Below, in pieces: positions 3,682 through 27,826 of a DNA stretch of 28,420 nt. The notes beneath the pieces are model-generated. The model was given only the letters and a program-made list of their open reading frames with translations. It was not told the DNA's origin and made no database searches. Position numbers and translations under genes: made by a program. Numbering within the stretch: the stretch's first letter is position 1; each line of letters begins with the position of its first letter. This DNA comes from Catajapyx aquilonaris (Eukaryota), in contig KZ538697.1 in assembly GCA_000934665.2 (NCBI GenBank), positions 62,001-90,420 on the forward strand, read 5' to 3'.

Positions 3682-3694
3682 GTTGCCCGGCAAC
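3682..3694. promoter_or_regulatory. Perfect palindromic RFX X-box GTTGCC-C-GGCAAC
   Basis: Exact inverted GTTGCC half-sites with a 1-nt spacer, the high-affinity RFX1-3 dimer site. Confidence 0.6.
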
Positions 3695-15695: not shown

Positions 15696-16438
15696 GGCGA
15701 CGCTGCAGAGATACACAAACAAAAGGCCTCCGGGTCTGCACACCTGTGCAAGGCCTGTTTGCCATGTCAATAGTGTATTGCTCATTCATTGATCTTTGAT
15801 CCCTCCCAAACTTTTTTTTATACTACCTCCCCTCAAAAAGCGCGCCAAAGCGGCTTAATTTACCGCGCGATCCCCGGCGATTCGGGAGACCTGTAAGCAG
15901 AATGCCCCCCGAATGAAAGTTTTGTCGAATGTCGCAGGTCAGGCTGGAGTTAAGCCCTAATTCGGAGAGGGAAGTGTATACAAAATGCGGATAATTGAGC
16001 ATCACTTGGGCTGAAGCTATACACAGCCAACCTGTCATCAGTCCGATCCCCGGATTATATAGCATAATTTACACAAACCGCATAACATATTTTGCAGTTT
16101 CAGATTTTCTCAAATTTTCCCATATTTGCCCCCCATCATTTTCCTAATACACTTTGCCAAATATTGGCAACAGGTTCACTACAGCAGATGAGTGCCAAAT
16201 AATCTCTTCGCACATGTCGGCGTCAATGCGCGCAGTAGCGCACTGAGCAGCAGGGGTAGGGGCGATGCACAAAAAACCGCAGTCTGGAAGCCGAATATCG
16301 ACGGCCCGTGTTATGCGTATGAATCTTGTTTACATACGCAGCAGTTTTTTTAGTGCTCAACAGAGCGGTGCAATGCAATATATGCTGTAATTGTGTGTGC
16401 TTTTTTTTTGTGTGTGTGCAGATTGCGGCCCCCTCGCC

Positions 16439-16976
16439 ATGACGACGGCGCCGCCGGCATTCATCCAGGTGGACATGCAGGGGCTTAGCTCGTGTGCGTC
16501 GTCGACGGCTGCGACGGTCACGGTGGTCACCACCTCCACGCAGTCAGGCGCCGGTAGAGAGGGCGCCGGGTCTGGTCCGGGCGGAGGCGGCGGCGGCGGC
16601 GACGGAGGAGGAAGCAGCGGAGGAAGCGACAATGGTGCGTCGTCCGTGGACGTCCACTCCGAGTCGGAAAGCCCTCCGATTAACCCCCAGCAGCAAGCGG
16701 CGGGCACCCCGTCCCCGCAGGTCACCGCCCAGGTGGTGGTCAGCAGCACCAATCCATCCGCCGCAGCCGCCGTGGTCCCTGCCCCTGGTCCAGGCTCGGG
16801 GCCGCCCCTGACCCCTACCACCCCGGGGCAGACCCCGGAGCACGTGGCGGCCGCGGCTGCTGCAGCGGCGCAGCAACAGGGTTCCTCGGCGGCGGCGGCG
16901 GCTGCTGCGGCTGCGGCCGTGGCTGCCGCAGCCTCCACCACCATCGTCAACTCGTCCCAGTACATCACCGTGCCTG
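16439..16976 (+). CDS. Rfx: Rfx first coding exon (MTTAPPAF...QYITVP; Gly/Ala/Ser-rich low complexity)
   Basis: Acceptor tgtgcag ends at 16421; GCC-ATG at 16439; GC-rich open frame; donor G|GTCAGT at 16977 (phase 1). QYITVP-VSE resembles the RFX1 QYIVVTVSE motif. The acceptor implies an upstream non-coding exon. Confidence 0.85.
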
Positions 16977-19900
16977 GTCAGTCTCATTACCCACCTCAAA
17001 AACTTATTGCCAATTACACCTCCACTCTCCCTCTCTCTCTCTCTGTACTAATAATAATAACCAGAAGCATGATCTGTATAACTAAACCAGCTTTGGTGGC
17101 ACAATTTGCGGTCTTTTTCGGGATTTAACTGTGGAGGACTTTTGGAGTGGGGAAGATGAGGAGATTTCGTACTGTTAAGTGGTCCCCCGACTTGTTCGCG
17201 AAACTTATTCACTTCCAAATCATAAGCGAGTGATAACCAGAAGCAGAAATCATAATCCGCACAAGCTCTTCTTACATTGCAACAATCCATATTCCGTCCC
17301 TATGTCATTATTGGTAAGTAAATGCCTCACTATAGACTGTTAGCTCAAGTTTCACACGCAGTTCAGTTGAACCCGTTGCTGCTAATTTTAGTGTAAAACA
17401 CCCATTTATTAGTCATGTGTGATTAACTGATGAAATTTCATTCACTTGACTTTACTGTTGTGAACTATTCTCATCATACCCGGATCAGTATGGGATAGTT
17501 TGGTAAATATGCAAAATTATGCGGCGCAATTTGCACATTCTCTATAGCAGCCCTCAACTTTTTTTCCCCCCTCTTGTTGGCCTTGTAATTAAGTAGAGCG
17601 GAACATTGATGCTTAAAAATATGTCGGAGTTGAATAGAACTTTGGATTGCTCAATTTGCATGAAATCTGGACCACTTTGAACTTAAGCTCCTCAGGTATA
17701 TATGCTAAGTTGCATTGTATTGTGAACCCGAGAGAAGGTTAGTAACGGTATATAAGGAATTGTTCCACGCATTCCCGTTTTCTATATATATATATATATA
17801 TATCTGTACGTTTTCACTCCAATAATATCGTAATGCTCTTTCTCTCTTTGCTGGCAATGCGAAATGAGACCTAGGAGGGAAAGTTTAATGAGCACTTTTT
17901 TCCCATTGTCCGGGAAGATCCGATTTGAAACCCCCTTGATGCTTCTTTTCATGCCTGCCTTTAGAGGGGAGCACCACTCGATCGTATACTTCCCTCACCC
18001 CAGTTAATCCCACCATAGGTAAGACGCAGTTTTACCTTTGATCTCTGGCACACACCGGTATACCAACAACACGATGAGGGAAATAAAAAGAGGAAAGAAA
18101 ATGACAAAAAAATATAACAACAACAAAAATATATATGTGTGACTCCCAAGTTTTGCAAAAATATGCACCATCGCTTTTGTTGATAAAATTTGCAGTTAAT
18201 ATCTCGAGTCTCTTGGGAAGCAACTAATTAGTAGATCAATTAACGTAGGTGCTCTCTGAAGTCGAAAATGGCACAATCTCACAAGAGTTTTGGAGGAGGA
18301 TTTGCGGGGGGAGCTTGATGGGAAGGCACATTTTGCACACTTACTAATTGCATTTTAGAGGCTTGACATGATGACGATTGTGGCTAATCCCCTGTATAGT
18401 GCATGTTTGAAAGATAATAATCTGAAGCAGTTGGCTAAAGTGGGGAAGGGGGGAAAACATATCTTCAAACAAAATAATTTTTAATAATAAATGAGGGGGG
18501 GAAATATATACCTAACCAGGGACTTCGTTCTTGCAGTGTCTGAAGCTGATGGAGTGGGCTGTGACACAGTTTCTTCAGCTGTCCATTCTACGTATGTGCA
18601 TTATGTAGAGGGTTCCACAGATCCCACTATATACACCGCTACTAACGGGCAGATGTAACTATCTCTACTAATTATCTACGGTTGTCTGTGTGTGCGCTTT
18701 TTTTTTAAAAAAAAAAAGCTTATGTGAAGTGTTGAGCTAGCACTTGGCCTTTTTGCATCGTTGCTGTTGCATGTGTGTTCCTACTAAACACTGGTTATTT
18801 TTTCATGTTGTTGTTGTAATTCCCCCGACTCCCAACCCCTTTTGTTGACTAATTTGAAAATGTTTCTGGCCAATTGGATGTTTTTGCAGGTTTCTCTCCC
18901 CCTTTCACGTGTACAGGCAGGTTCAAAATGCTCTGTTTTTTTGTGTGATTCATTCCCAGTTGTTTATTTAGCCGGTACTGTCAGCAAAACAGCGCAATTT
19001 GCAACGACAATTTGTGCAGTTTTGGTCTATGTATTGTGCAATAAACAATTATTCTGCAACCGTATTATAGCTGTAGTTTTGTGAGCTAATTTAGCTCTTT
19101 GGGCGGTTTGAAAGCAGCAGGTTACAGTCATGACCGCTTTTATGTTTTATAGGACTTGTAAAATTAAACATTTTTTTTTGTTTGCCTGGGGCTGCAGTTA
19201 GGCGTTTATTGGACGCTGTAATCCACTCAGCCAAGCTTCTGTATTATGAATAAAATTGCGGAAACTATCGGCCAGCAATACTTTGGGTTGCCCATCACGT
19301 TTCCCTCCATGATTGCTATTTCATAAAACGTGTAGACTGAGTTTGATTCATTTCAATGGTATTCACCCTTTCTCCAGCACTTGAAATAGGACCTACTGTT
19401 TCTGAGTAAAATATTTTCTCTCAACTGATGACTCAATTTGTGGCACATTTAATCAAATTTGTATAATATTTTATATAGGCATTGCAATGTCAGTTGAAAG
19501 GTATACTATTTCAATTAGAGATTGAAAACCCCCCATTGAAAATAATTCAGTACAAATCGAAGGCAAATTGCACCCAAGTTATGTACCTCCTGACCTCGTT
19601 ACAGAGATATATGAATTTGTTGACCATCATTCTCCATTTTTCCGCTTGCATTATAGAAAATCATGTCCTTTGGAGTGTAATCACGGAGGTCCAACAAAAT
19701 TAGGGCGAACACCCCAGTGGGTAATTGGATGTCCTTCCTGTACTGTACGTCCTCTGAGAATATAATCCGAGGCTCTCGCGACGTATATGCATGAATATTT
19801 TTCTTTCAATATTAAGTCTACCTTCACGCACCGTAATTTGACATAACCAGGCGTAATGGCGCAGGCGATTAATTAATCGAATAATCGACCCCTCTAATTG

Positions 19901-22763
19901 CGCCGTTATGTTTTCCCTATCAGAACTTGTTAATGTTCGGCTTTAAAGCTGTGGAGGGGGTGAAAATTCTCACATTTTTTTTTCGTGTTATTTGTTTTGC
20001 ACTGTAGTATTTTGGGGGNTACTACAACACAGGGAATTCGACTGCTGTGACCTATTCTCAGGTGAGTTTTGCAGCGTTGTTCCTTTCTCCGTTTTATTGG
20101 TGTTGAAACCTTTTTTTTTTAAAAAAAAAAACGTGTGACACTATTGTCGTACGTTATCAAAAGGAATATTGAACACGCTGCCTTTCCGGTTGGATGCTGA
20201 TAACATGAGGATCTGGGTTGCCAAAAAAAGCGACCAATACCTGTCAATATTACAGGATTTTAAAAAAAGAAGTTGTCTTCAAAAATGTATCTCACTATGT
20301 AGATGTCGTTTTAACTAGTGCGAGCACATACAGAATTATTTGTTGTTATCACGTAGGCCTATATACATGGATGCTGCATCGGTATCATTAACACGACATG
20401 CAGTGTGACACTTTGCCAGGGAATCACACATGCAAACAATTTACATAAATGAATTTGTTGTCATCAGTCCCACCACCCGTGAACGTCAATAAAATAATTT
20501 ATAAATTGGAGAATATTAACTGCCAACTCGGCTGGTCACATCATGACCGGTCGTACAGACATTTTGTCATTGTCCAGTTGTTGTCAACTGCTGGAAAATC
20601 CATTTCGTATAGTAATTTAAGGCTATTCAATGACATTTAAAAGGTGCCTATTATTCTCCAAGTGGTATTGTGCTGGAGTAATTTTTGTCTCTCGATCAGT
20701 GACATCGGCTGTTTTTGTAATCAACCATTCAGATGTAGTTGGCTGCAATTTCATATATAAATATGAGAAAATTTGCAATGCAGTTTTGCCAGAGAAGTAG
20801 AGGCGAACTCGACTTTTTTTTTTGCACATCCGGCGGGAATGCGGTTACCAAAAAAAAAACAAAGACAAATGCCAACAATATTGTTGTTGTCATGGGAACA
20901 GTGGTCGTTAGGAATCTCCCGAAAAATTGCGTCAACTTTTTGTCCCCCCTCCATTTCTCCCAAATTTTCTGGTTCCTATGACGAAGGTTGTGTTGGTTAT
21001 TACCTCCTCTCTTTAGGTGACGGGCAGCATATCGCAGGGTAGCGGCGCCATGGCCAACCAAAACCAGCTGCTCACGCAGGGAGGAGGAACGTACCTGATC
21101 CAACAAGGAGTCGAAGCCGAAGCTCACACGCTTATCAATGCGGCCAGGGCTTCACCTCAAGCCGTAAGTTGCATTTTTATATTTTAAAATTATTGCATCA
21201 ATTTATCCAACCATATACATATTACGGGGGGAAAAAATTGAAGCAAACTCTTTCATTATTTTTTTTAAAATGCTCTCGCGGTGTATCGTCGAACGCTCGA
21301 ACCACTCGAACGTATATCAACAATGTCCCTTACTGTCTCCAGCAGGATGGCGGAGTGACTTACATGGTGACCGGTAACTCCAACGCGTCGCTGGAAGGAG
21401 ACGGTCATCCCAGCCTGTCCCACGCCACCAGGGTATCTCCAGCCACGGTACGTTGTGAACTACTGTACAGTACAACATATTCCCAGTGTTTCAAACAGCC
21501 CGCGCTCTTCGGTACACTGCGCGCGCATTCCCCCGTGACGTCACCCCCCCNTTCACGACAAGTCGGACGCGCGACGTTCCAAAAGAAATCTCCTTTTGTC
21601 CTTTATATTTCCTTCCTCGTCGCGGTTGCCCCTGGAGATAATATGTGGAGCCAGGTCGGGCCATCATCTTCAGGAGCCATGCCCGTGGAGGGGCTGGAGC
21701 TGGTCGCGGCGGGGCCTTCAGCTGCTGACGACCCTCTGGGACATTTCACCCAGGAGGAGCTGGAGGCGATCATGCCCAATCTGGCCGAACTGGACGTGTC
21801 CCAGTTCGAGATAATGGACGACCAGATGGGACTGTCCTTCCTGGAAGGTTTCGAAGGGTTCCAGCAGGACGTCAAGCCGCCCACCCCTAGCCAAGTGCAG
21901 GAATCGGTATATACACATCACGTACATCTCCATCCATAGGCATATTCGACAGAACGATTTATGGCGCTTTTTTTTCTCTCTCTCTCGAGTGTGTTCAGCT
22001 GATGTCAGAGAACAATTGTGGGAATAACATTTTTGCTTGTTTATTTAGTTCGTAAGGCTTACTGTTGGCAGCATTTTGTTGTTTTCTAATTTTTACATGC
22101 AGCCGAAATAATGTTTGCCTGACTCCAGTGCAGTTACAGAATTTCGACGTACCGTTATCCTCAAAGTCTAGTGTTGGAGTCTCTCATGATCAATTTTTAA
22201 TGCTCTTCTAATGCTCAGCTGATGCTTTTTTTAGCAACAAAAAGCATCACAAGAGCATTAGAATAGCATTAAAAATTGATCATGAGAGACTCACCAGTGA
22301 TGCTCTTTTAATATTTTTGCGGTTTACTACGTAGGTAATTGGATTGTATTGTTGATTTTCAGTTGTGCCAACTCAAAAGTGCCAAGTGTACCAAATCATG
22401 TTTACTATCAACAGTCCGCTAGTTGGCACAACTGGAAACCAACAATACAATTCAATTACCTATGTATCCTGACTTTAGAGTTACCCTGTACTTTTGTTTG
22501 GAGCTGACAGATGACTGAGGAGATGACATGTAATCTCATGTGGAACAATGAATTCTTTTGTCAAAATAATTACTTTCTCGCTATACCATGAGTGCTAATA
22601 GGACACCGAATATTGGAAGTAGTCTACAACCCATTTGGCAAACACATTGAATACGCACATAATCACAACAGTGGATTAGACTGTAGCATTATGAACAGAT
22701 ATTTTGCATTACGAGACTTTAATCACAATGTGGTAGCCCCAGTAGGCCTATCATGAAGTATCA

Positions 22764-22794
<31 letters not shown>

Positions 22795-24660
22795 GACACA
22801 CCATCATGTATCCTTTTTCCCTAAAGCCACCAGAAAGGGATGTGAAGCCTTTTGCGACAGACTGCACCCCACTCTCCGATGGCGATCAGAGCTATGCATT
22901 TCCTCTGCAGCTGACCACAGTCAGAACCCGTGCATCCTACCCAAATGATGCCAACTCCTCTTACATCCCAGTCAACCTGATAAGTAGCACCTCTCGGTCA
23001 GGCAGCAATGGAAGTGGGCTGACACAGAACCAAACCCGGGCCTGCCCTATCACAGTGAGCTCCCAGCTAACCTTTCTTTTCCTCCCCCTGATCCTGAAAT
23101 ATGAAATAGTAGGATCTCATCACATTTTTATGTAGCTGAAGCATTTCACATTAATTTTATTTGTGTATTTGTAAAGTGAGATAGGTTTGCGATAGTGCAG
23201 TTTTTAAAATTTCACTGTGTTGTTTCTAATAAGGCTCTCAAGAGTATGCAACAAGCACATAGTATTGTTCAAATCTGTTGAAATTGCCAGGAATAAGTGT
23301 GCTCTACAAGTTTGTGTTCAGTGTTGCATTAATGTTCACAGTAACGTATATCAACAAGCCTGTGGATAGGAAGAAACAGTGATAATATATTAATGTATGT
23401 ATTAGGCACTTCTTCAAAATCAGTAAACAAGATTTTGCAGTAACATTATAGCATTCTCTCGATATAGTTACCTTGAAGAGTTGTGGCTTCCTCATAGTCA
23501 CTGGTATCCCTTACAGTTACAGGAACAAACTGTGAAGTAAACGTAATGTATGTGCACATAATTATGTATGAAGCATTGCAAGTACGAATTTTTTTACTAC
23601 ATGCTAAGATGAGTTCCTGTAGGGAGGGATAGTATATGGACACAAGTTTTCAGTTTTCCTCAGTTGTCCACTGCTATGGATACCGTATTTGCTTTGTTAT
23701 GCACTGGACATTGGTCATGTTTCCTAACTTCCTTCTTGCTCCCTGAAACCCGAGACATTCCTTGGAAGAAAACTTTCTAATTCACAGTTTATTTAGCACT
23801 CAAATGACATCAAGAGGAAACTGCATTACGCATTAAGAATTTCAGTCAATTTATTTTCCATTGCCCACAGTGTGTAGTCCCACTTTGGATTCGATGAGCT
23901 GCAAGAGTATGGGACAATGCCTTGTTAAACTTTGGTTTATGTCATCAAGACCATCCAGATTGTGCATTTATGTTCAGTGATTGGATTCGTGCATTTGCGA
24001 TGTAATATTATTACTATTTGTATTCATTCTCTCCCCCTTTTCCCACTAGGTCCAGTGGCTGCTGGACAACTATGAGACAGCTGAAGGAGTGAGCCTTCCT
24101 CGGTCAACGTTGTATGCCCATTACCTCCGGCACTGTAATGAACACAAGCTGGACCCAGTGAATGCAGCCTCCTTTGGCAAGCTGATCCGATCCGTGTTCC
24201 TAGGTTTGCGCACCCGCCGCCTAGGCACTAGAGGGAACTCCAAGTATCACTATTATGGAATCAGGGTGAAGCCCACATCTCCGCTCAATCAGGTGATTAT
24301 GTTGTACTATTAGGGGGCAGTACTGTGGCGTAGGGGTTACCATCACAGCATTCCACTTGTAAAGGACCCATGTTCAATCCCTGGGTTGTAGAGAGGGTTT
24401 TCTCATGGGGAAAGAGCTTCGATGGGTTTTCTCTGTGTTTGCATGCATTTTCGGGGGATCCTCCTGCTCTTTTCCCATGTCAAAACCCATCAGCAGTGCA
24501 GGAATGGAGAATAAAAATGGAAATGGAAGAGGAATACCTAAGAAGGCACAGGCCTTGTGTGGAAGGAGTGTTTCAAGGCTGCTTAGCATGGGTTTTCAGT
24601 ATTGCAATTATTCTGCATCCTCAGTGCTCTGAAGGAGTCAGTGATAGTGCATTATTATAT

Positions 24661-24727
<67 letters not shown>

Positions 24728-25004
24728 GGATACCCCGTGATAGGCCCCTTGGGCCTCTTAGGGGATCGTCTTTTTGAATAACCGACTTTAATCATTTACC
24801 TGTAATGTGATGGATTTTGATAGCGGGAGGAAACGGGAGAACCCCGAGAAAACCCACGCGAACACGGAGAGAACCCATCGAAACTCTATCCACATAAGTA
24901 TCCTCCGTCCGACCCGGGGATCGAACTCGGGACCTTAGAGGTGGAAGGCTAACCACTCCGCCACCGTGTCGCCCACTTATTATTATTACTACTACTACTA
25001 CTTC

Positions 25005-25073
<69 letters not shown>

Positions 25074-27826
25074 TATTATTTCCAGGTCACTGCCGCTTCA
25101 ACAGGTGAAGATGGCAATGGAGCTGTTGGTGGCCAATTGCAGATACAGGGTGGGCAAGGACAAGTGACGCCTGCACAGCAGCAGCAAGGAGGGCAGACGC
25201 AACCAACAATCAGGCAACAACCAGCATACCAGAAGAGGTTTAATAAAACAGTGGGAGCAAAAACTGAGTATGACGGAAATGCCACAGGTGGAGCTGGCCC
25301 ACACAACTCGGGCTCTGATTCCACGTCGCCCCAGCACCACCAGTATTTAGGAGACCCAACAGGAGCTGTGCCAGCCCTGCCCGAAATTGACACTGATCTT
25401 TGCTTGCTCCCAGACTCACTTACCCAAGACGATGTGGATACCTTTCGCAGTATGTACGGAGACCATTGTGAATCGCTCCTAGAAGCAGTGACCGCACTCC
25501 AGTTTACCTCGGTGGAGCAGCTGTGGCGCCAGTTCTGGCGGGGCCCCAATAACAACAACAACAGTGAGTCCGAGTGTGAAAAGGCACTTCCAAAAGCGAA
25601 GCTCTACATGTTGTGCAAGCTGGAACCAGTGCAGAAATTTGTTCGGTCCGTTGACTACCAGTTCTACCAGAACTTGGTGGATGTTTTGATAGCAGACGTG
25701 TTGAGGCCCATACCCAGCTCCCTGACGCAGGCCATCCGCAACTTCGCCAAGGGGCTGGAGGGATGGATGACTTCAGCCATGAACGGGAGCCCAGAGGATA
25801 TGTTGCATGTGAAGGTGCCCGCTGTTAGTGCATTTGCGCAGACGCTCCGAAGGTACACCTCGCTGAACCACCTGGCCCAGGCGGCCAGGGCCGTCCTTCA
25901 GAACGCCGCCCAGATCAACCAGATGCTGGCTGACCTTAACCGGGTTGATTTCCATAACGTCCAGGAGCAGGTATGTTATGCTTCTCAGTAATAATATTGT
26001 GCATACAGGAAGATGAAAGGTTGGTTGGTTGGTTGGTATAGGAAGGGTTACCCAGCTTGTATGGCTCTGTCTGAGTCGAGCCTTGGCAGCCGGGGGTAGG
26101 AGAGGAAGGTGTGGGATTGCAAGGTAGGGTGGGTTAGAAGGGTGGGGGAGAGGAGGGCTGGCCCCGGCTGTACTGCAATGCCGGGTCCAACCCAGGGACG
26201 GGGGTGGGATATTCTCCCAAGCACCCCGTCCGACCAAGAAATGCGAGTCAGGTCCGAGGACCTTTCGAGGAAGAGAGTACCGTCGCTGGCGAACCAGCCG
26301 GGACCTCATATACATGTATGATATTATATATTTAAGATGAAAGGAAAACAACAAAATCAAGGCATCAGATTTTCTCCATTTCTGTCAACCTACTTGTAAT
26401 TAACAAGAAATGTGAAGCAGGCTGGAAGAAGGCTGCTTGCATACTTATGACAACATATTGGTTGTCTGTTGCCTCAAGTAGTACGTAAGGTGACAATCAC
26501 CTAGTGAATTTTAGACAGTAGTAAAAGAGTTATATGACACACATGAGAATGATAGTGTTACCATAATGGTGTCTAAAGGGCACTCTGGGACATTTGCAGG
26601 CCTCGTGGGTCTGCCAGTGCGAAGACGGCCTGGTGTCCCAACTGGAGGCAGACTTCAAGGTGACACTGCAACAGCAGAACTCCCTGGAGCAGTGGGCTGC
26701 CTGGCTGGAAGGTGTTGTCAACCAGGTGCTCAAGCCATATGAGGGGAAGCCTGACTTTGCCAAGGCTGCCCGACAGTTCCTGCTCAAGTGGTCCTTTTAC
26801 AGGTACCGGTATTGTTCTGTTTTAGTAAGTCTTGGATATGAACAGCTTGAAGAGGATGGGGAGATTAACTGCAATTTGCTTCTTTCTTTATTCAACAGCT
26901 CTATGGTCATAAGGGACTTGACGCTGCGCAGCGCAGCAAGCTTCGGGTCCTTCCACTTGATCCGTCTTCTGTACGACGAGTATATGTTTTACCTCATAGA
27001 GCACAGGGTAGCCTCAGCCACCGGGGAGACACCCATCGCGGTCATGGGCGAGGTAAACCACATGCAATACATTTTGTTTTCATGATGAAGGTGTCAGGGT
27101 GGTTTGTATTATTCCATCATAAAGGCCATGGTATCGAACTGTTGATTAATAGCTTATGCATAATTTGTAGTTAGATTGTTATGCGGGAATGAAATATTTG
27201 CATTTCTAATTAAACAGTGGGAAGTTTTTTCAACCCAACGCTGTAAAAGTAAGTCTGTTTTGCCTTTTTGGCAGTCCATGCAGGTCTGTTAAATTAGGAA
27301 CAAGCAAGAATATGTAGCTTTGATATTTTATTTTATGTTTTATATTTATTTTAGTCCAATGTACATATTTATAAAAACTTCAACACTTTTCCTTTTTGGC
27401 CAGAAGCCTCGTGAGATTTTGATGCCCCTGCCGCCATCCCCTCCGTCCCTGGGCAGCAGCAATCCGTCCACCTCTGAGTCCGACATCAAGGGCGAAGGGG
27501 TAAACAACATGAGCCTAGGTGGAGGTGATGGCAACAGCAGCGGCAACGTGTACAACAATGGATTGATGGTCTCGCCCACGTCTGTCTCTGCTGCTGGCAT
27601 CGGCACTAGCATCAACGGCAGTGGCGTCATGTCTAACCACCACCACCAGCATCACCAGCAGCAGCAGCAAGCACAGCACCAGCAGCACCATCACCATCAC
27701 CTCCCACAGCAGTTGCAGCAGCACCACCAGCAACAACAGCAGGACCAGAAGATGGTGATGGTTGCCATACCATTGCATGACGGAAGTGGTGAGACACCGA
27801 CTGCAAAGAGGCTCAAGACCAGCTAA
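16439..27826 (+). CDS. Rfx: RFX1/2/3-family winged-helix transcription factor, spliced gene (long isoform roughly 960 aa)
   Basis: Exons translate to hallmark RFX motifs: [44 protein letters not shown]...[15 protein letters not shown] (DBD), [80 protein letters not shown] (dimerisation). GT-AG junctions are phase-compatible except one unresolved junction between 18654 and 20008. Confidence 0.97.
18537..18654 (+). CDS. Rfx: Rfx exon (VSEADG...[22 protein letters not shown]), activation-domain region
   Basis: ttcttgcag acceptor ending 18536; phase 1 matches the previous exon; 118 nt open; motif matches RFX2/3 VQYVEGSDTVYTNG; donor AT|GTAACT (phase 2). Not in the ORF track. Confidence 0.9.
20008..20061 (+). 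CDS. Rfx: Rfx small exon (..[14 protein letters not shown]); 5' boundary uncertain
   Basis: Strong donor CAG|GTGAGT at 20062 (phase 0) joining VTG of the next exon; Tyr/Thr-rich peptide typical of this RFX region. The apparent acceptor tgtag ends at 20007, but an N lies at 20019 and the phase does not match the preceding exon. Confidence 0.7.
21017..21163 (+). CDS. Rfx: Rfx exon (VTGSISQG...[10 protein letters not shown]...AARASPQA)
   Basis: ctcctctctttag acceptor; 147 nt = 49 codons open; GTAAGT donor at 21164; GGTYLI and RASP motifs of the RFX N-terminal region. Confidence 0.9.
21343..21447 (+). CDS. Rfx: Rfx exon ((Q)[10 protein letters not shown]...[10 protein letters not shown]), immediately N-terminal to the DBD
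   Basis: ctccagcag tandem acceptor (start 21343 or 21346); donor ACG|GTACGT at 21448 (phase 0); [10 protein letters not shown] matches the conserved SHTTRASPAT that precedes VQWL. Confidence 0.92.
21518..21639 (+). promoter_or_regulatory. Putative internal promoter: TGCGCGCGCA palindrome (21518-21527), CRE GTGACGTCAC (21535-21544), X-box-like GTTGCC-CCT-GGAGAT (21625-21639)
   Basis: Motif cluster in a CpG-dense patch directly 5' of ATG 21643. Confidence 0.5.
21643..21906 (+). CDS. Rfx: Putative alternative first coding exon of Rfx, acidic/hydrophobic 88 aa (MWSQVG...QVQES)
   Basis: GC-rich island with strong coding-like codon usage (CTG, GAG, GAC, TTC) inside an AT-rich intron; ATG at 21643; TCG|GTATAT phase-0 donor at 21907, where composition drops back to intronic. 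Confidence 0.7.
22177..22292. repeat. Near-perfect palindrome / fold-back element, 116 bp
   Basis: GAGTCTCTCATGATCAATTTTTAATGCTCTTCTAATGCTC..TGATGCTTTTT pairs with AAAAAGCATCA..GAGCATTAGAATAGCATTAAAAATTGATCATGAGAGACTC around a short loop. Confidence 0.9.
22328..22466. mobile_element. MITE with 46-bp TIRs and TA termini
   Basis: 22328-22373 versus reverse complement of 22421-22466: 4 mismatches in 46; both ends are TA, compatible with a Tc1/mariner-type TA duplication. Confidence 0.8.
22765..22794. repeat. (ATT)n microsatellite
   Basis: About 10 ATT units. Confidence 0.9.
22827..23054 (+). CDS. Rfx: Putative alternative Rfx exon (PPERDVKPF...QTRACPIT); shorter form may start at 22911
   Basis: Pyrimidine tract cctttttccctaaag ending 22826 (second acceptor tttcctctgcag ending 22910, same frame); 228 nt open; ACA|GTGAGC phase-0 donor at 23055; ends in TRACPIT, a variant of TRASPAT. 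Confidence 0.7.
24050..24292 (+). CDS. Rfx: Rfx DNA-binding (winged-helix) domain exon
   Basis: Long pyrimidine tract + tag acceptor; [90 protein letters not shown] donor; 243 nt. Confidence 0.98.
24314..24490 (+). mobile_element. Degenerate tRNA-derived SINE with V-domain-like core
   Basis: tRNA-like head (TGGCGTAGGGG; GTTCAATCC) followed by GAGCTTCGATGGGTTTTCTCTGTGTTTGCATGC..., alignable by eye to the minus-strand copy downstream. Confidence 0.65.
24662..24974 (-). mobile_element. tRNA-derived SINE with V-domain-like core and (AAT)n tail
   Basis: Minus strand reads GGGCGACACGG-TGGCGGAGTGG (A box, 24953-24963)...GTTCGATCC (B box, 24918-24926)...GTTCTCTCCGTGTTCGCGTGGGTTTTCTCGGGGTTCTCCCGTTTCCTCCC (V-SINE-like), then a 3' stem-loop region and (AAT)n. 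Confidence 0.85.
24977..25080. repeat. (ATT/ACT)n microsatellite abutting the splice acceptor
   Basis: About 34 trinucleotide units directly before TTTCCAG. Confidence 0.95.
25086..25970 (+). CDS. Rfx: Rfx exon: post-DBD linker, B and C boxes, start of dimerisation domain
   Basis: tttccag acceptor ending 25085; 885 nt open; [63 protein letters not shown] donor at 25971. Confidence 0.96.
26021..26333 (-). mobile_element. GC-rich retroposed insertion (SINE or LINE 3' remnant) with (CCAA)n tail
   Basis: Flanked by the 11-bp direct repeat AAGATGAAAGG (26010-26020 and 26334-26344); GGTT repeats at the left end read (CCAA)n on the minus strand; composition contrasts with the AT-rich intron. Confidence 0.6.
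26600..26802 (+). CDS. Rfx: Rfx dimerisation-domain exon (ASWVCQC...QFLLKWSFY)
   Basis: tttgcag acceptor ending 26599; continues VQEQ|ASWVC; AG|GTACCG donor, phase 2. Confidence 0.96.
26899..27052 (+). CDS. Rfx: Rfx dimerisation-domain exon ([29 protein letters not shown]...PIAVMGE)
   Basis: ttcaacag acceptor ending 26898; restores conserved WSFYSSMVIRD; GAG|GTAAAC donor at 27053. Confidence 0.96.
27404..27826 (+). CDS. Rfx: Rfx terminal coding exon, Ser/Gly- and His/Gln-rich, ending in basic PTAKRLKTS
   Basis: cttttcctttttggccag acceptor ending 27403 (CAGAAG tandem site allows 27407); phase 0; TAA at 27824-27826; C-terminal AKR.K motif resembles the RFX2/3 C-terminal basic motif. Confidence 0.88.
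   Translation, partial: KPREILMPLPPSPPSLGSSNPSTSESDIKGEGVNNMSLGGGDGNSSGNVYNNGLMVSPTSVSAAGIGTSINGSGVMSNHHHQHHQQQQQAQHQQHHHHHLPQQLQQHHQQQQQDQKMVMVAIPLHDGSGETPTAKRLKTS

What the first reader, a model, noticed from the sequence alone, without database searches (positions are those of the whole stretch)
21518..24292. Nested alternative N-terminal module: internal promoter + acidic exon + second pre-DBD exon giving a distinct ~799 aa RFX isoform
Seen: inside the intron between the [10 protein letters not shown] exon and the DBD exon lie two extra phase-0-donor open segments, 21643-21906 and 22827-23054. Joined to the DBD and downstream exons they total 2400 nt (799 aa + stop) with no frame break. 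The first encodes 16 Asp/Glu versus 1 Lys in 88 aa with interspersed L/F/M, a classic acidic activation-domain composition, unlike the Gln/Tyr/Ala-rich long N-terminus. A CRE palindrome, CpG cluster and X-box-like site sit just upstream. Known: C. elegans daf-19 uses internal promoters to make short isoforms with different roles (ciliogenesis versus neuronal). Inference: this gene swaps activation domains on one DBD via an internal promoter, and I do not recognise this peptide from known RFX proteins.
Basis: partly seen in the sequence, partly recalled or inferred. Interest (0 to 1): 0.85.

Follow-up and report, generated by a model that had tools for sequence, protein, structure and literature searches.

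The report
Candidate alternative N-terminal exons of RFX
Inside an arthropod RFX transcription-factor gene, two extra open segments just before the DNA-binding exon look like real coding exons that could give a shorter protein with a different, acidic front end, but no RNA data or close relatives could be found to prove they are used.

Summary
Segments 21643-21906 (A) and 22827-23054 (B) are open, have GT donors, and B has a good acceptor. Joined to the RFX DNA-binding exon and downstream exons they give 2400 nt, which is 799 aa plus stop.

A is very probably coding:
- Its codon-usage score, trained on the gene's 10 known exons, is 0.62 bits/codon in the claimed frame and at most 0.32 in the other five.
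- It beats all 124 non-exon ORFs.
- It shows training-free 3-base periodicity, p=7e-6.

B is moderately supported by codon usage and splice sites, but shows no periodicity.

A CpG cluster and a full CRE lie about 100 bp upstream of A's ATG. Intronic CpG o/e falls from 1.08 upstream of A to 0.49 downstream, which fits an internal promoter only circumstantially. The "X-box-like" site is at chance level.

No homolog of A or B turned up anywhere, but the nearest available relatives are only about 60-66% identical even in conserved exons, so conservation is untestable here. No RNA run was listed.

Verdict: a plausible, lineage-specific alternative N-terminal RFX isoform. It is a variant of a known theme (daf-19, RFX4) and is unproven.

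The parts
21343..21447 (+). Exon E5 of the long isoform (…[10 protein letters not shown]). It is phase 0-0 with donor ACG|gtacgt.
   Evidence: tblastn of arthropod RFX proteins, 65-69% identity. Boundaries. Codon score 0.66 bits/codon, leave-one-out.
21400..21700 (.). CpG cluster and candidate internal promoter region. It is the 3' end of a roughly 2-kb stretch (19.5-21.7 kb) without CpG depletion.
   Evidence: 18-19 CpG per 200 bp, o/e 1.1-1.2. Intronic CpG o/e is 1.08 for 19501-21642 and 0.49 for 21907-27403. No ATG lies between 21400 and 21643.
21536..21543 (.). Full palindromic CRE TGACGTCA (extended palindrome GTGACGTCAC), 100 bp upstream of the ATG of A.
   Evidence: There are two copies in the window (1077 and 21536), so it is not significant alone.
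21625..21639 (+). X-box-like site GTTGCC-CCT-GGAGAT. It has one mismatch to the consensus and is at chance level.
   Evidence: 108 sites with at most 1 mismatch in the window. Consensus taken from PMC2375033.
21643..21906 (+). Candidate exon A: ATG plus 88 codons of acidic peptide, with phase-0 donor TCG|gtatat. It is probably an alternative first coding exon.
   Evidence: - Codon score 0.62, against at most 0.32 in the other five frames.
- 0 of 124 non-exon ORFs reach it.
- Synonymous-only score 0.32, z=6.0.
- 5th best coding segment of the whole window, ending exactly at 21906.
- Periodicity p=7e-6.
- The donor scores 2.3 bits, against 4.2-12.4 for the known donors.
22827..23054 (+). Candidate exon B: 76 codons, S/T/P/N-rich, phase 0-0. 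Its acceptor has an 80% pyrimidine tract and its donor is ACA|gtgagc.
   Evidence: - Codon score 0.24-0.25, against at most -0.06 in the other frames.
- 0 of 124 null ORFs reach its score or margin.
- Synonymous-only score 0.12, z=3.7.
- Donor 5.3 bits and acceptor as given.
- GC 0.54 in introns of 0.36-0.37.
- No 3-base periodicity, p=0.6.
24050..24292 (+). RFX DNA-binding-domain exon, phase 0-0. It is the common acceptor for E5, A or B.
   Evidence: Pfam PF02257 at 5.3e-35. 89-95% identity to arthropod RFX.
25086..27826 (+). Shared downstream exons 25086-25970, 26600-26802, 26899-27052 and 27404-27826 (stop). They encode the B/C/dimerisation region and the C-terminus.
   Evidence: Pfam BCD_RFX PF25340 at 6.8e-64. 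tblastn. Frame check.

Best explanation
The window holds an arthropod RFX1/2/3-type gene.

Segment A (21643-21906) is a genuine protein-coding exon. It is most likely an alternative first coding exon, transcribed from an internal CpG-rich, CRE-bearing promoter in the intron after the [10 protein letters not shown] exon.

Its phase-0 donor joins, probably through the phase-0/0 exon B (22827-23054), to the DNA-binding-domain exon. The product is a 799-aa protein, or 723 aa if B is skipped. It keeps the DBD, B/C and dimerisation regions, and replaces the roughly 320-aa Gln/Ser/Gly/Ala-rich N-terminus with a lineage-specific acidic, hydrophobic-studded, largely disordered segment.

Shown here: the coordinates, frame arithmetic, coding statistics, CpG landscape and motif positions.

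Inferred: transcription from an internal start, the splice joins, and any function of the peptide as an activation domain.
For: 1. Frame-specific codon usage, trained only on the gene's 10 known exons. A scores 0.62 bits/codon in the claimed frame and 0.03-0.32 in the other five. B scores 0.25 against at most -0.06.
2. 0 of 124 non-exon ORFs of 60 or more codons in the window reach either score (null maximum 0.15) or either margin over other frames.
3. Synonymous-codon choice alone gives A 0.32 (z 6.0) and B 0.12 (z 3.7). The null ORF maximum is 0.077 and known exons range from -0.23 to 0.37.
4. An unbiased maximal-segment scan of both strands ranks 21619-21906 fifth in the window, above known exons E4, E5 and E8, and the segment ends exactly at the proposed donor. 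B scores 13.4. Only one other non-exon segment passes the threshold, at 12.3.
5. Training-free 3-base periodicity for A gives p=7e-6, with GC1/2/3 of 0.70/0.40/0.75 as in exons E8-E10. Of the 124 null ORFs only one reaches a comparable p (1.7e-5), and it overlaps a trinucleotide microsatellite.
6. The sliding score is about zero or negative across 21433-21642 and rises at the ATG. There is no ATG between 21400 and 21643. The ATG has A at -3.
7. The only in-frame acceptor for a cassette reading (21655) has 35% pyrimidines, against 45-95% for known acceptors.
8. CpG peaks at 21400-21699 with a full CRE at 21536. Intronic CpG o/e is 1.08 in 19501-21642 and 0.49 in 21907-27403. Exons E1-E5 give 0.88 and exons DBD-E10 give 0.51.
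9. All joins are phase 0, and the 2400-nt reading frame is intact.
10. There is precedent for lineage-specific exons at this position. A Centruroides isoform has a 66-aa insert between the equivalent exon and the DBD, and several Hymenoptera isoforms have an 8-aa one.
Against: - A's donor TCG|GTATAT scores 2.3 bits with a recalled generic donor matrix. That is below all nine known donors of the gene, which score 4.2-12.4.
- B has no 3-base periodicity, p=0.6. Its segment score of 13.4 is close to a non-exon segment at 12.3.
- No homolog of A or B was found in: 1.84 billion protein representatives (A only); the word-indexed 5.8-billion set, longer proteins only; 120 arthropod RFX proteins; 80 metagenomic RFX loci; or five genomic loci that hold both the SPAT-type and the DBD exon.
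- None of the 120 listed arthropod RFX proteins shows an A-like N-terminus next to the DBD.
- The codon model was trained on only about 950 codons of the same gene. It also partly reflects amino-acid and GC composition.
- The CRE (2 in the window) and the X-box-like site (108 as good) are not significant alone.
- No Inr, TATA (strict), DRE or E-box motif was found in 21400-21700.
- The E5 frame stays open through the 65 intronic codons into A, so read-through cannot be excluded.
Confidence: 0.5

Rival explanations
1. A and/or B are internal cassette exons, or a retained or extended exon, of the long isoform. There is no internal transcription start. They would insert extra linker sequence between the [10 protein letters not shown] exon and the DBD.
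For: - All exons in this part of the gene are phase 0-0, so any combination stays in frame.
- The E5 frame is open through 21448-21642 into A (ORF 21043..21939).
- A pyrimidine-rich run at 21590-21622 and AG dinucleotides at 21636, 21648 and 21653 precede A.
- Other arthropod RFX genes have cassette exons at this position and skip the neighbouring exons.
- B has a good acceptor, so E5-B-DBD is plausible.
Against: - The in-frame acceptor at 21655 has only 35% pyrimidines.
- The better-looking AG at 21636-21637 puts the exon out of frame.
- The 65 codons between E5 and A score as non-coding, -0.33 to 0.26.
- The coding signal starts at about the ATG.
Confidence: 0.18
2. Neither segment is translated. 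They are chance open frames in a GC-rich, CpG-rich regulatory island (an enhancer, or the promoter of a non-coding transcript), or decayed former exons.
For: - Most of the six frames are open around A.
- No homolog of either peptide exists anywhere searched.
- A's donor is weak.
- B lacks periodicity.
- The AlphaFold2 model of A has low confidence, mean pLDDT 53.6.
Against: - A's claimed frame beats the other five frames and all 124 null ORFs, including the 16 with GC of at least 0.55. This holds for the total score, the synonymous-only score and the margin.
- A's periodicity of p=7e-6 needs no training set.
- The other GC-rich non-coding blocks of the window score at most 0.15.
Confidence: 0.17
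3. A, or A plus B, belongs to a separate small gene nested in the RFX intron on the same strand. Unspliced, A would give a 98-aa product, reading on to the TAG at 21937-21939. A+B ending at the stop at 23133-23135 would give 190 aa. Neither would join the DBD exon.
For: - A has its own ATG, a candidate promoter and a weak donor.
- Both ORFs run on to nearby stops.
- The peptides are unrelated to any RFX protein.
Against: - No AATAAA or ATTAAA lies in 23055-24049.
- The coding signal of A ends exactly at the donor.
- B ends in a good GTGAGC donor in phase 0, matching the DBD acceptor.
- No homolog of such a small protein was found.
Confidence: 0.1

Closest known systems
C. elegans daf-19 isoforms (A/B, C, M)
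   Same: One RFX gene gives several proteins that share the DBD and dimerisation regions and differ only at the N-terminus, with different roles. I read passages of bioRxiv 10.1101/2021.02.03.429678; that preprint cites Senti & Swoboda 2008 and Wang et al. 2010, which I did not read. The proposal here has the same logic: a common DBD and C-terminus with an alternative N-terminus.
   Different: [quoted passage not shown]
- Here a 164-aa novel module with a strongly acidic first part would replace it.
- Use of an internal promoter is shown experimentally in the worm and only inferred here.
- There is no sequence similarity.
Human RFX gene TSS diversity, especially RFX4
   Same: Human RFX genes use several start sites, some of them testis-specific (pC@RFX1, pE@RFX3, pB/pC@RFX4). 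RFX4 start sites give different protein variants. I read passages of PMC5838959.
   Different: - That paper states that RFX start sites of one gene typically give the same protein, with RFX4 as the exception.
- For an RFX1-3-type gene, swapping the whole pre-DBD region would therefore be unusual.
- Nothing here is shown at the RNA level.
Pre-DBD alternative exons in other arthropod RFX genes (predicted isoforms)
   Same: Predicted isoforms of Centruroides, Hymenoptera, Bemisia, Ischnura and others include or skip exons directly before the DBD. One example is a 66-aa lineage-specific insert in Centruroides P0116.
   Different: - All of these keep the canonical N-terminus.
- Of the 120 listed proteins, the few with a short pre-DBD N-terminus (P0014, P0025, P0026, P0045) have no A-like sequence there.
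- None shares sequence with A or B; the best BLASTP E-values are 6.6 and 1.0.
RFX transcripts with short charged N-termini (probably the RFX4/6-type group)
   Same: 3 of the 80 metagenomic RFX loci (L035, L038, L039) encode only about 80-90 charged residues before the DBD. This is an architecture like the proposed short isoform. Human group 2 (RFX4/6/8) lacks the activation domain (PMC5838959).
   Different: - Those loci have only 72-73% DBD identity to this gene, so they are probably another paralogue group. That assignment is my inference and was not tested.
- Their N-termini have balanced charge (D/E 14-19 against K/R 13-15), whereas A has 16 against 1.

Membership tests
RFX1/2/3-type (group 1) RFX transcription factor gene | RFX winged-helix DNA-binding domain | tested here: met
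   Pfam PF02257 at 5.3e-35 on 24050-24292. 89-95% identity to arthropod RFX DBDs.
RFX1/2/3-type (group 1) RFX transcription factor gene | B, C and dimerisation region downstream of the DBD | tested here: met
   Pfam BCD_RFX PF25340 at 6.8e-64 on 25089-25991. tblastn colinear with arthropod RFX2/RFX3 proteins through 27052.
RFX1/2/3-type (group 1) RFX transcription factor gene | Long conserved N-terminal region before the DBD (the activation-domain side) | tested here: met
   Exons at 16439-16976, 18537-18654, 20008-20061, 21017-21163 and 21343-21447 align to insect and scorpion RFX N-termini. One short exon is not located.
daf-19-like internal-promoter N-terminal isoform system | A transcription start inside the gene, upstream of the DBD exon | not testable with these tools
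   Only indirect signs are available: a CpG cluster, a CRE, a boundary in CpG depletion, no upstream ATG, and onset of the coding signal at the ATG.
daf-19-like internal-promoter N-terminal isoform system | The alternative N-terminus joins in frame to the shared DBD and C-terminus | tested here: met
   In silico only: 2400 nt, 799 aa and a single terminal stop. The junctions were not observed.
daf-19-like internal-promoter N-terminal isoform system | Isoform-specific expression or function | not testable with these tools
   No RNA data could be examined.
Acidic transcriptional activation domain | Net negative charge with interspersed bulky hydrophobic residues in a disordered or short-helix context | tested here: met
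   - 16 D/E against 1 K.
- 21 W/F/Y/L/M/I in 88 aa.
- Residues 33-75 have net charge -10 with 15 hydrophobics.
- AlphaFold2 gives pLDDT 53.6 with helices at 37-48 and 61-74.
Acidic transcriptional activation domain | Activates a reporter when tethered to DNA | not testable with these tools
   This needs a GAL4-fusion or similar assay.
X-box (RFX binding site) upstream of exon A | Match to GYTRYY-N1-3-RRHRAC | tested here: not met
   The site at 21625 has one mismatch, and 108 sites at least as good exist in the window. There are 8 exact matches elsewhere, none within 21400-21700.
CRE-dependent promoter | Full palindromic TGACGTCA close to the start site | tested here: inconclusive
   The motif is present at 21536-21543, but the start site is unknown and the motif occurs twice in 28.4 kb.

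The most novel reading that the evidence does not exclude
The RFX gene of this arthropod lineage has acquired a de novo, lineage-specific acidic effector module (A, with linker B) driven by an internal CRE-bearing promoter.

Under this reading the internal promoter is the start site used in the germline. Heavy CpG depletion, the footprint of germline gene-body methylation, begins only just downstream of exon A, while the 2 kb before it stay undepleted.

The result would be an RFX1-3-type gene that produces two factors from the same DBD and dimerisation core. One is a somatic or ciliogenic long form with the conserved Gln-rich N-terminus. The other is a germline form with a new activation (or export) domain.
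Probability: 0.2. Interest if true: 0.55.

Novelty: new variant of a known kind. Interest (0 to 1): 0.35.

Why it matters
RFX factors control cilia, sensory-neuron and sperm programmes. How a single invertebrate RFX1-3-type gene serves different programmes is mainly understood from the daf-19 isoforms of C. elegans.

If it is real, this would be an arthropod RFX gene that exchanges the whole conserved pre-DBD region for an unrelated acidic segment through an internal promoter. That would be a clean natural case of effector-domain swapping on a fixed DNA-binding core, and of the birth of a new coding exon.

It is also directly testable with RT-PCR, 5'RACE and a tethering assay. As it stands it is a well-supported gene-model prediction, not a demonstrated isoform.

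Tried and rejected
RNA evidence:
- The look-up of sequencing runs with exon A, kind rna: no RNA holder was listed.
- No whole genome is held for the window.

Homology searches for A, all empty:
- phmmer against 1.84 billion representatives: 0 hits at E<=0.001.
- Word-indexed search, longer proteins only: 0 hits.
- Protein Atlas: no usable hit.
- Pfam: 0 families.
- PDB sequences: 0 hits.
- Metagenome contigs: 596 pattern matches, 0 confirmed.
- Earlier scan notes: nothing.

Homology searches for B, all empty:
- Word-indexed search, longer proteins only: 0 hits.
- Protein Atlas: none.
- Pfam: 0 families.

The 'near' and 'shorter' length classes of the word-indexed search were not run for either peptide.

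These blanks carry little weight. Even the conserved 300-aa exon finds nothing above 66% identity in the best 120 of 3221 hits. The closest of the 80 metagenomic RFX loci is about 60-63% identical. The source lineage is therefore not represented.

Transposon origin:
- No repeat of A or B within the window.
- No Pfam hit.
- Rejected as far as it could be tested.

The Amphibalanus model P0001 carries 72 extra residues between SPAT and the DBD. Its last part aligns to the polypyrimidine tract before the DBD exon, and the model also duplicates the BCD region. I treated it as a faulty gene model and did not use it.

NES reading of A: three regex matches ([10 protein letters not shown] and two others). 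The same regex hits 1.62 times per 100 aa in the 120 RFX homologs, so it is not informative. The NES spacing rule is recalled.

Analogous acidic ORFs in the SPAT-DBD introns of five metagenomic arthropod loci: none convincing; those introns hold retroelement-like ORFs.

Literature searches listed no paper on an arthropod RFX isoform of this kind. Only listings, plus passages of three papers, were read.
Full report
**What is in the window.** The + strand carries an RFX1/2/3-type transcription-factor gene.
- Exon 24050-24292 matches Pfam RFX_DNA_binding (5.3e-35). Exon 25086-25970 matches BCD_RFX (6.8e-64).
- A search with the 300-aa BCD exon returned 3221 proteins. The best 120 are all arthropod RFX2/RFX3/Rfx proteins at 55-66% identity.
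- The source is therefore an arthropod whose own lineage is not represented in the protein collections.
- tblastn of six of these proteins, followed by inspection of splice sites, gave this exon map: E1 16439-16976, E2 18537-18654, E3 20008-20061, E4 21017-21163, E5 21343-21447 (…[10 protein letters not shown]), DBD 24050-24292, E7 25086-25970, E8 26600-26802, E9 26899-27052, E10 27404-27826 including the stop.

**Check of the observation.** The two segments are as described.
- A (21643-21906) is 264 nt, starts with ATG and is followed by gtatat.
- B (22827-23054) is 228 nt and lies between ...ttttccctaaag and gtgagc.
- A+B+DBD+E7-E10 is 2400 nt and translates to 799 aa with one terminal stop.
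- A has 16 D/E, 1 K and no R.
- TGACGTCA lies at 21536-21543, and CpG density peaks at 21400-21699.
- The X-box-like site at 21625 has one mismatch to GYTRYY-N1-3-RRHRAC (consensus read in PMC2375033). There are 108 sites as good in the window, so this element is at chance level.
- The CRE occurs twice in the window, against about 0.4 expected by simple arithmetic.
- Most of the six frames are open around A, so openness alone says little.

**Are A and B coding?** I trained a codon model on the 10 known exons (about 950 codons). The background was the trinucleotide frequencies of all non-exon sequence, with A and B excluded from both.
- Known exons, left out one at a time, score 0.02-0.69 bits/codon in the true frame. 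In 9 of 10 the true frame is the best of six (E2 after correcting my frame anchor; E9 is the exception).
- A scores 0.62 in the claimed frame and 0.03-0.32 in the other five. B scores 0.25 against at most -0.06.
- Among 124 stop-free non-exon segments of 60 or more codons on both strands, the maximum is 0.15. None reaches the score, or the margin over other frames, of A or of B. The 16 of them with GC of at least 0.55 also stay at or below 0.15.
- Using only synonymous-codon choice, A gives 0.32 (z 6.0 against background-sampled synonyms) and B gives 0.12 (z 3.7). The null ORF maximum is 0.077.
- A maximal-segment scan of the entire window on both strands ranks 21619-21906 fifth, above the known exons E4, E5 and E8. 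Its 3' end falls exactly on the proposed donor. B passes at 13.4. The only other non-exon segment passes at 12.3.
- The known DBD exon does not pass that scan, so its sensitivity is limited.
- A chi-square test of base by codon position, which needs no training, gives p=7e-6 for A. That is comparable to E8, E9 and E10. Of the null ORFs only one reaches a comparable p (1.7e-5), and it overlaps an (ATT)n microsatellite.
- B shows no periodicity (p=0.6), but neither do the real exons E4, E5 and DBD.
- I conclude that A is very probably a coding exon (about 75-80%) and that B is probably one (about 55-60%).

**First exon or cassette?**
- In the frame of E5 and A, 20-codon windows score -0.33 to 0.26 across 21433-21642, then rise to 0.48-0.80 from 21643 on.
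- There is no ATG between 21400 and 21643. The ATG has A at -3, and a second in-frame ATG at 21679 has a GCC context.
- The in-frame acceptor that a cassette reading needs (CAG at 21652-21654) has 35% pyrimidines in its upstream 20 nt, against 45-95% for the nine known acceptors. The better AG at 21636-21637 is out of frame.
- These points favour a first exon.
- Against this, the E5 frame remains open through the 65 intronic codons. My arithmetic puts the chance of that at roughly 4-8%.
- A's donor TCG|GTATAT scores 2.3 bits with a recalled generic matrix, below all nine known donors at 4.2-12.4. B's donor scores 5.3.

**Promoter evidence.** All of this is indirect.
- The CpG peak and the CRE lie about 100 bp upstream of the ATG.
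- More informative is the CpG landscape. Intronic CpG o/e is 0.59 in 16977-19500, 1.08 in 19501-21642, and 0.49 in 21907-27403.
- Exons E1-E5 have 0.88, A has 0.60, B has 0.38, and exons DBD-E10 have 0.51.
- In animals with gene-body methylation, CpG depletion marks germline-methylated transcribed DNA, and undepleted islands mark unmethylated promoters. This is established knowledge applied here by inference.
- An undepleted 2-kb island ending at exon A, followed by sustained depletion, fits an internal germline-active promoter. It would also fit an intragenic enhancer, or simply 3'-biased methylation.
- No strict TATA, Inr, DRE or E-box motif is present in 21400-21700.

**Relatives.** No homolog of A or B was found.
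- phmmer of A against 1.84 billion representatives: none.
- Word-indexed searches of A and B, longer proteins only: none.
- Protein Atlas: none.
- Pfam: none.
- PDB: none.
- BLASTP against the 120 RFX homologs: best E-values 6.6 and 1.0.
- A metagenome scan with A: none.
- tblastn against 80 metagenomic RFX loci totalling 454 kb: none for A at E<=10, and the best for B is E=0.56.
- Five of those loci are genomic and hold both the SPAT-type and the DBD exon. Their introns contain no A-like or B-like ORF.
- The closest of these relatives is only about 60-63% identical in the conserved E7. A disordered acidic exon would not be recognisable at that distance.
- The test 'frame conservation in relatives' therefore remains open.
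- Other arthropod RFX genes do carry lineage-specific or skipped exons directly before the DBD: a Centruroides 66-aa insert, a Hymenoptera 8-aa insert, and Bemisia exon skipping.
- The few of the 120 listed proteins with a short pre-DBD N-terminus have no A-like sequence there.

**The peptide.**
- A is acidic (net -15) with 21 bulky hydrophobic residues.
- AlphaFold2 without an alignment gives low confidence (pLDDT 53.6), with two short helices at 37-48 and 61-74.
- This is the composition expected of an acidic activation domain, but that is inference. The generic nuclear-export spacing pattern also matches, though it matches RFX homologs 1.6 times per 100 aa.
- B is S/T/P/N/G-rich with zero net charge, like a linker.

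**Comparison with known systems.**
- DAF-19 isoforms share the DBD and dimerisation domain and differ only at the N-terminus, with distinct roles (passages of bioRxiv 10.1101/2021.02.03.429678).
- Human RFX genes use several start sites, including testis-specific ones. They mostly give the same protein, and RFX4 is the exception (passages of PMC5838959).
- The present case would work like these. It would differ in replacing the whole conserved pre-DBD region of an RFX1-3-type gene with an unrelated acidic module.
- Searches of the paper library listed nothing on such an arthropod isoform. I read only the listings and the passages named.

**Verdict.**
- Confidence that A is an alternative first coding exon joined, with or without B, to the DBD exon is about 0.5.
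- The rivals are: cassette or read-through exons without an internal start (0.18), untranslated chance ORFs in a regulatory island (0.17), and a separate nested small gene (0.10).
- This is a new variant of a known kind, of moderate interest until RNA evidence exists.

Noticed in passing
window 3682-3694: A perfect palindromic X-box, GTTGCC-C-GGCAAC, matches the restricted Drosophila consensus on both strands. It lies about 12.7 kb upstream of the E1 ATG. It could be an RFX autoregulatory site or belong to a neighbouring promoter.
   Followed up: no
window 22177-22292 and 22328-22466: Two hairpin, MITE-like inverted repeats lie in the A-B intron. One has 54-nt arms at 93% complementarity with an 8-nt loop. 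The other has 46-nt arms at 91% complementarity with a 47-nt loop.
   Followed up: partly
window 18655-20007: E1+E2 end in phase 2, but E3 starts in phase 0. Homologs have about 17 more residues here. A short exon of the long isoform is therefore missing, or is hidden by the N at 20019. A pattern scan found none.
   Followed up: partly
window 16415-16438: E1 is preceded by a polypyrimidine tract and an acceptor (…gtgtgcag|ATTGCGG) 16 nt before the ATG. The long isoform therefore has at least one 5'UTR exon, and its promoter, further upstream.
   Followed up: no
window 21043-21939: One 298-codon open frame runs through intron, exon E5, the 65 intronic codons after E5, and exon A. The intronic parts score as non-coding. 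The continuity is unexplained and may be chance.
   Followed up: partly
window 26050-26340: A GC-rich block (0.57-0.63) lies in the E7-E8 intron. It has several open frames on both strands but no frame-specific coding signal. It may be a repeat or a regulatory element.
   Followed up: no
window 22763-22795, 24640-24720, 24950-25080: Long (ATT)n/(TAT)n microsatellites lie in introns. One lies directly before the E7 acceptor and produces spurious 3-base periodicity in ORF scans.
   Followed up: no
P0001 (Amphibalanus RFX3 model): This public gene model duplicates the BCD region. It also extends the DBD exon upstream into what aligns with the polypyrimidine tract of the intron. It is likely mis-annotated, which inflates its score (483 bits).
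   Followed up: partly
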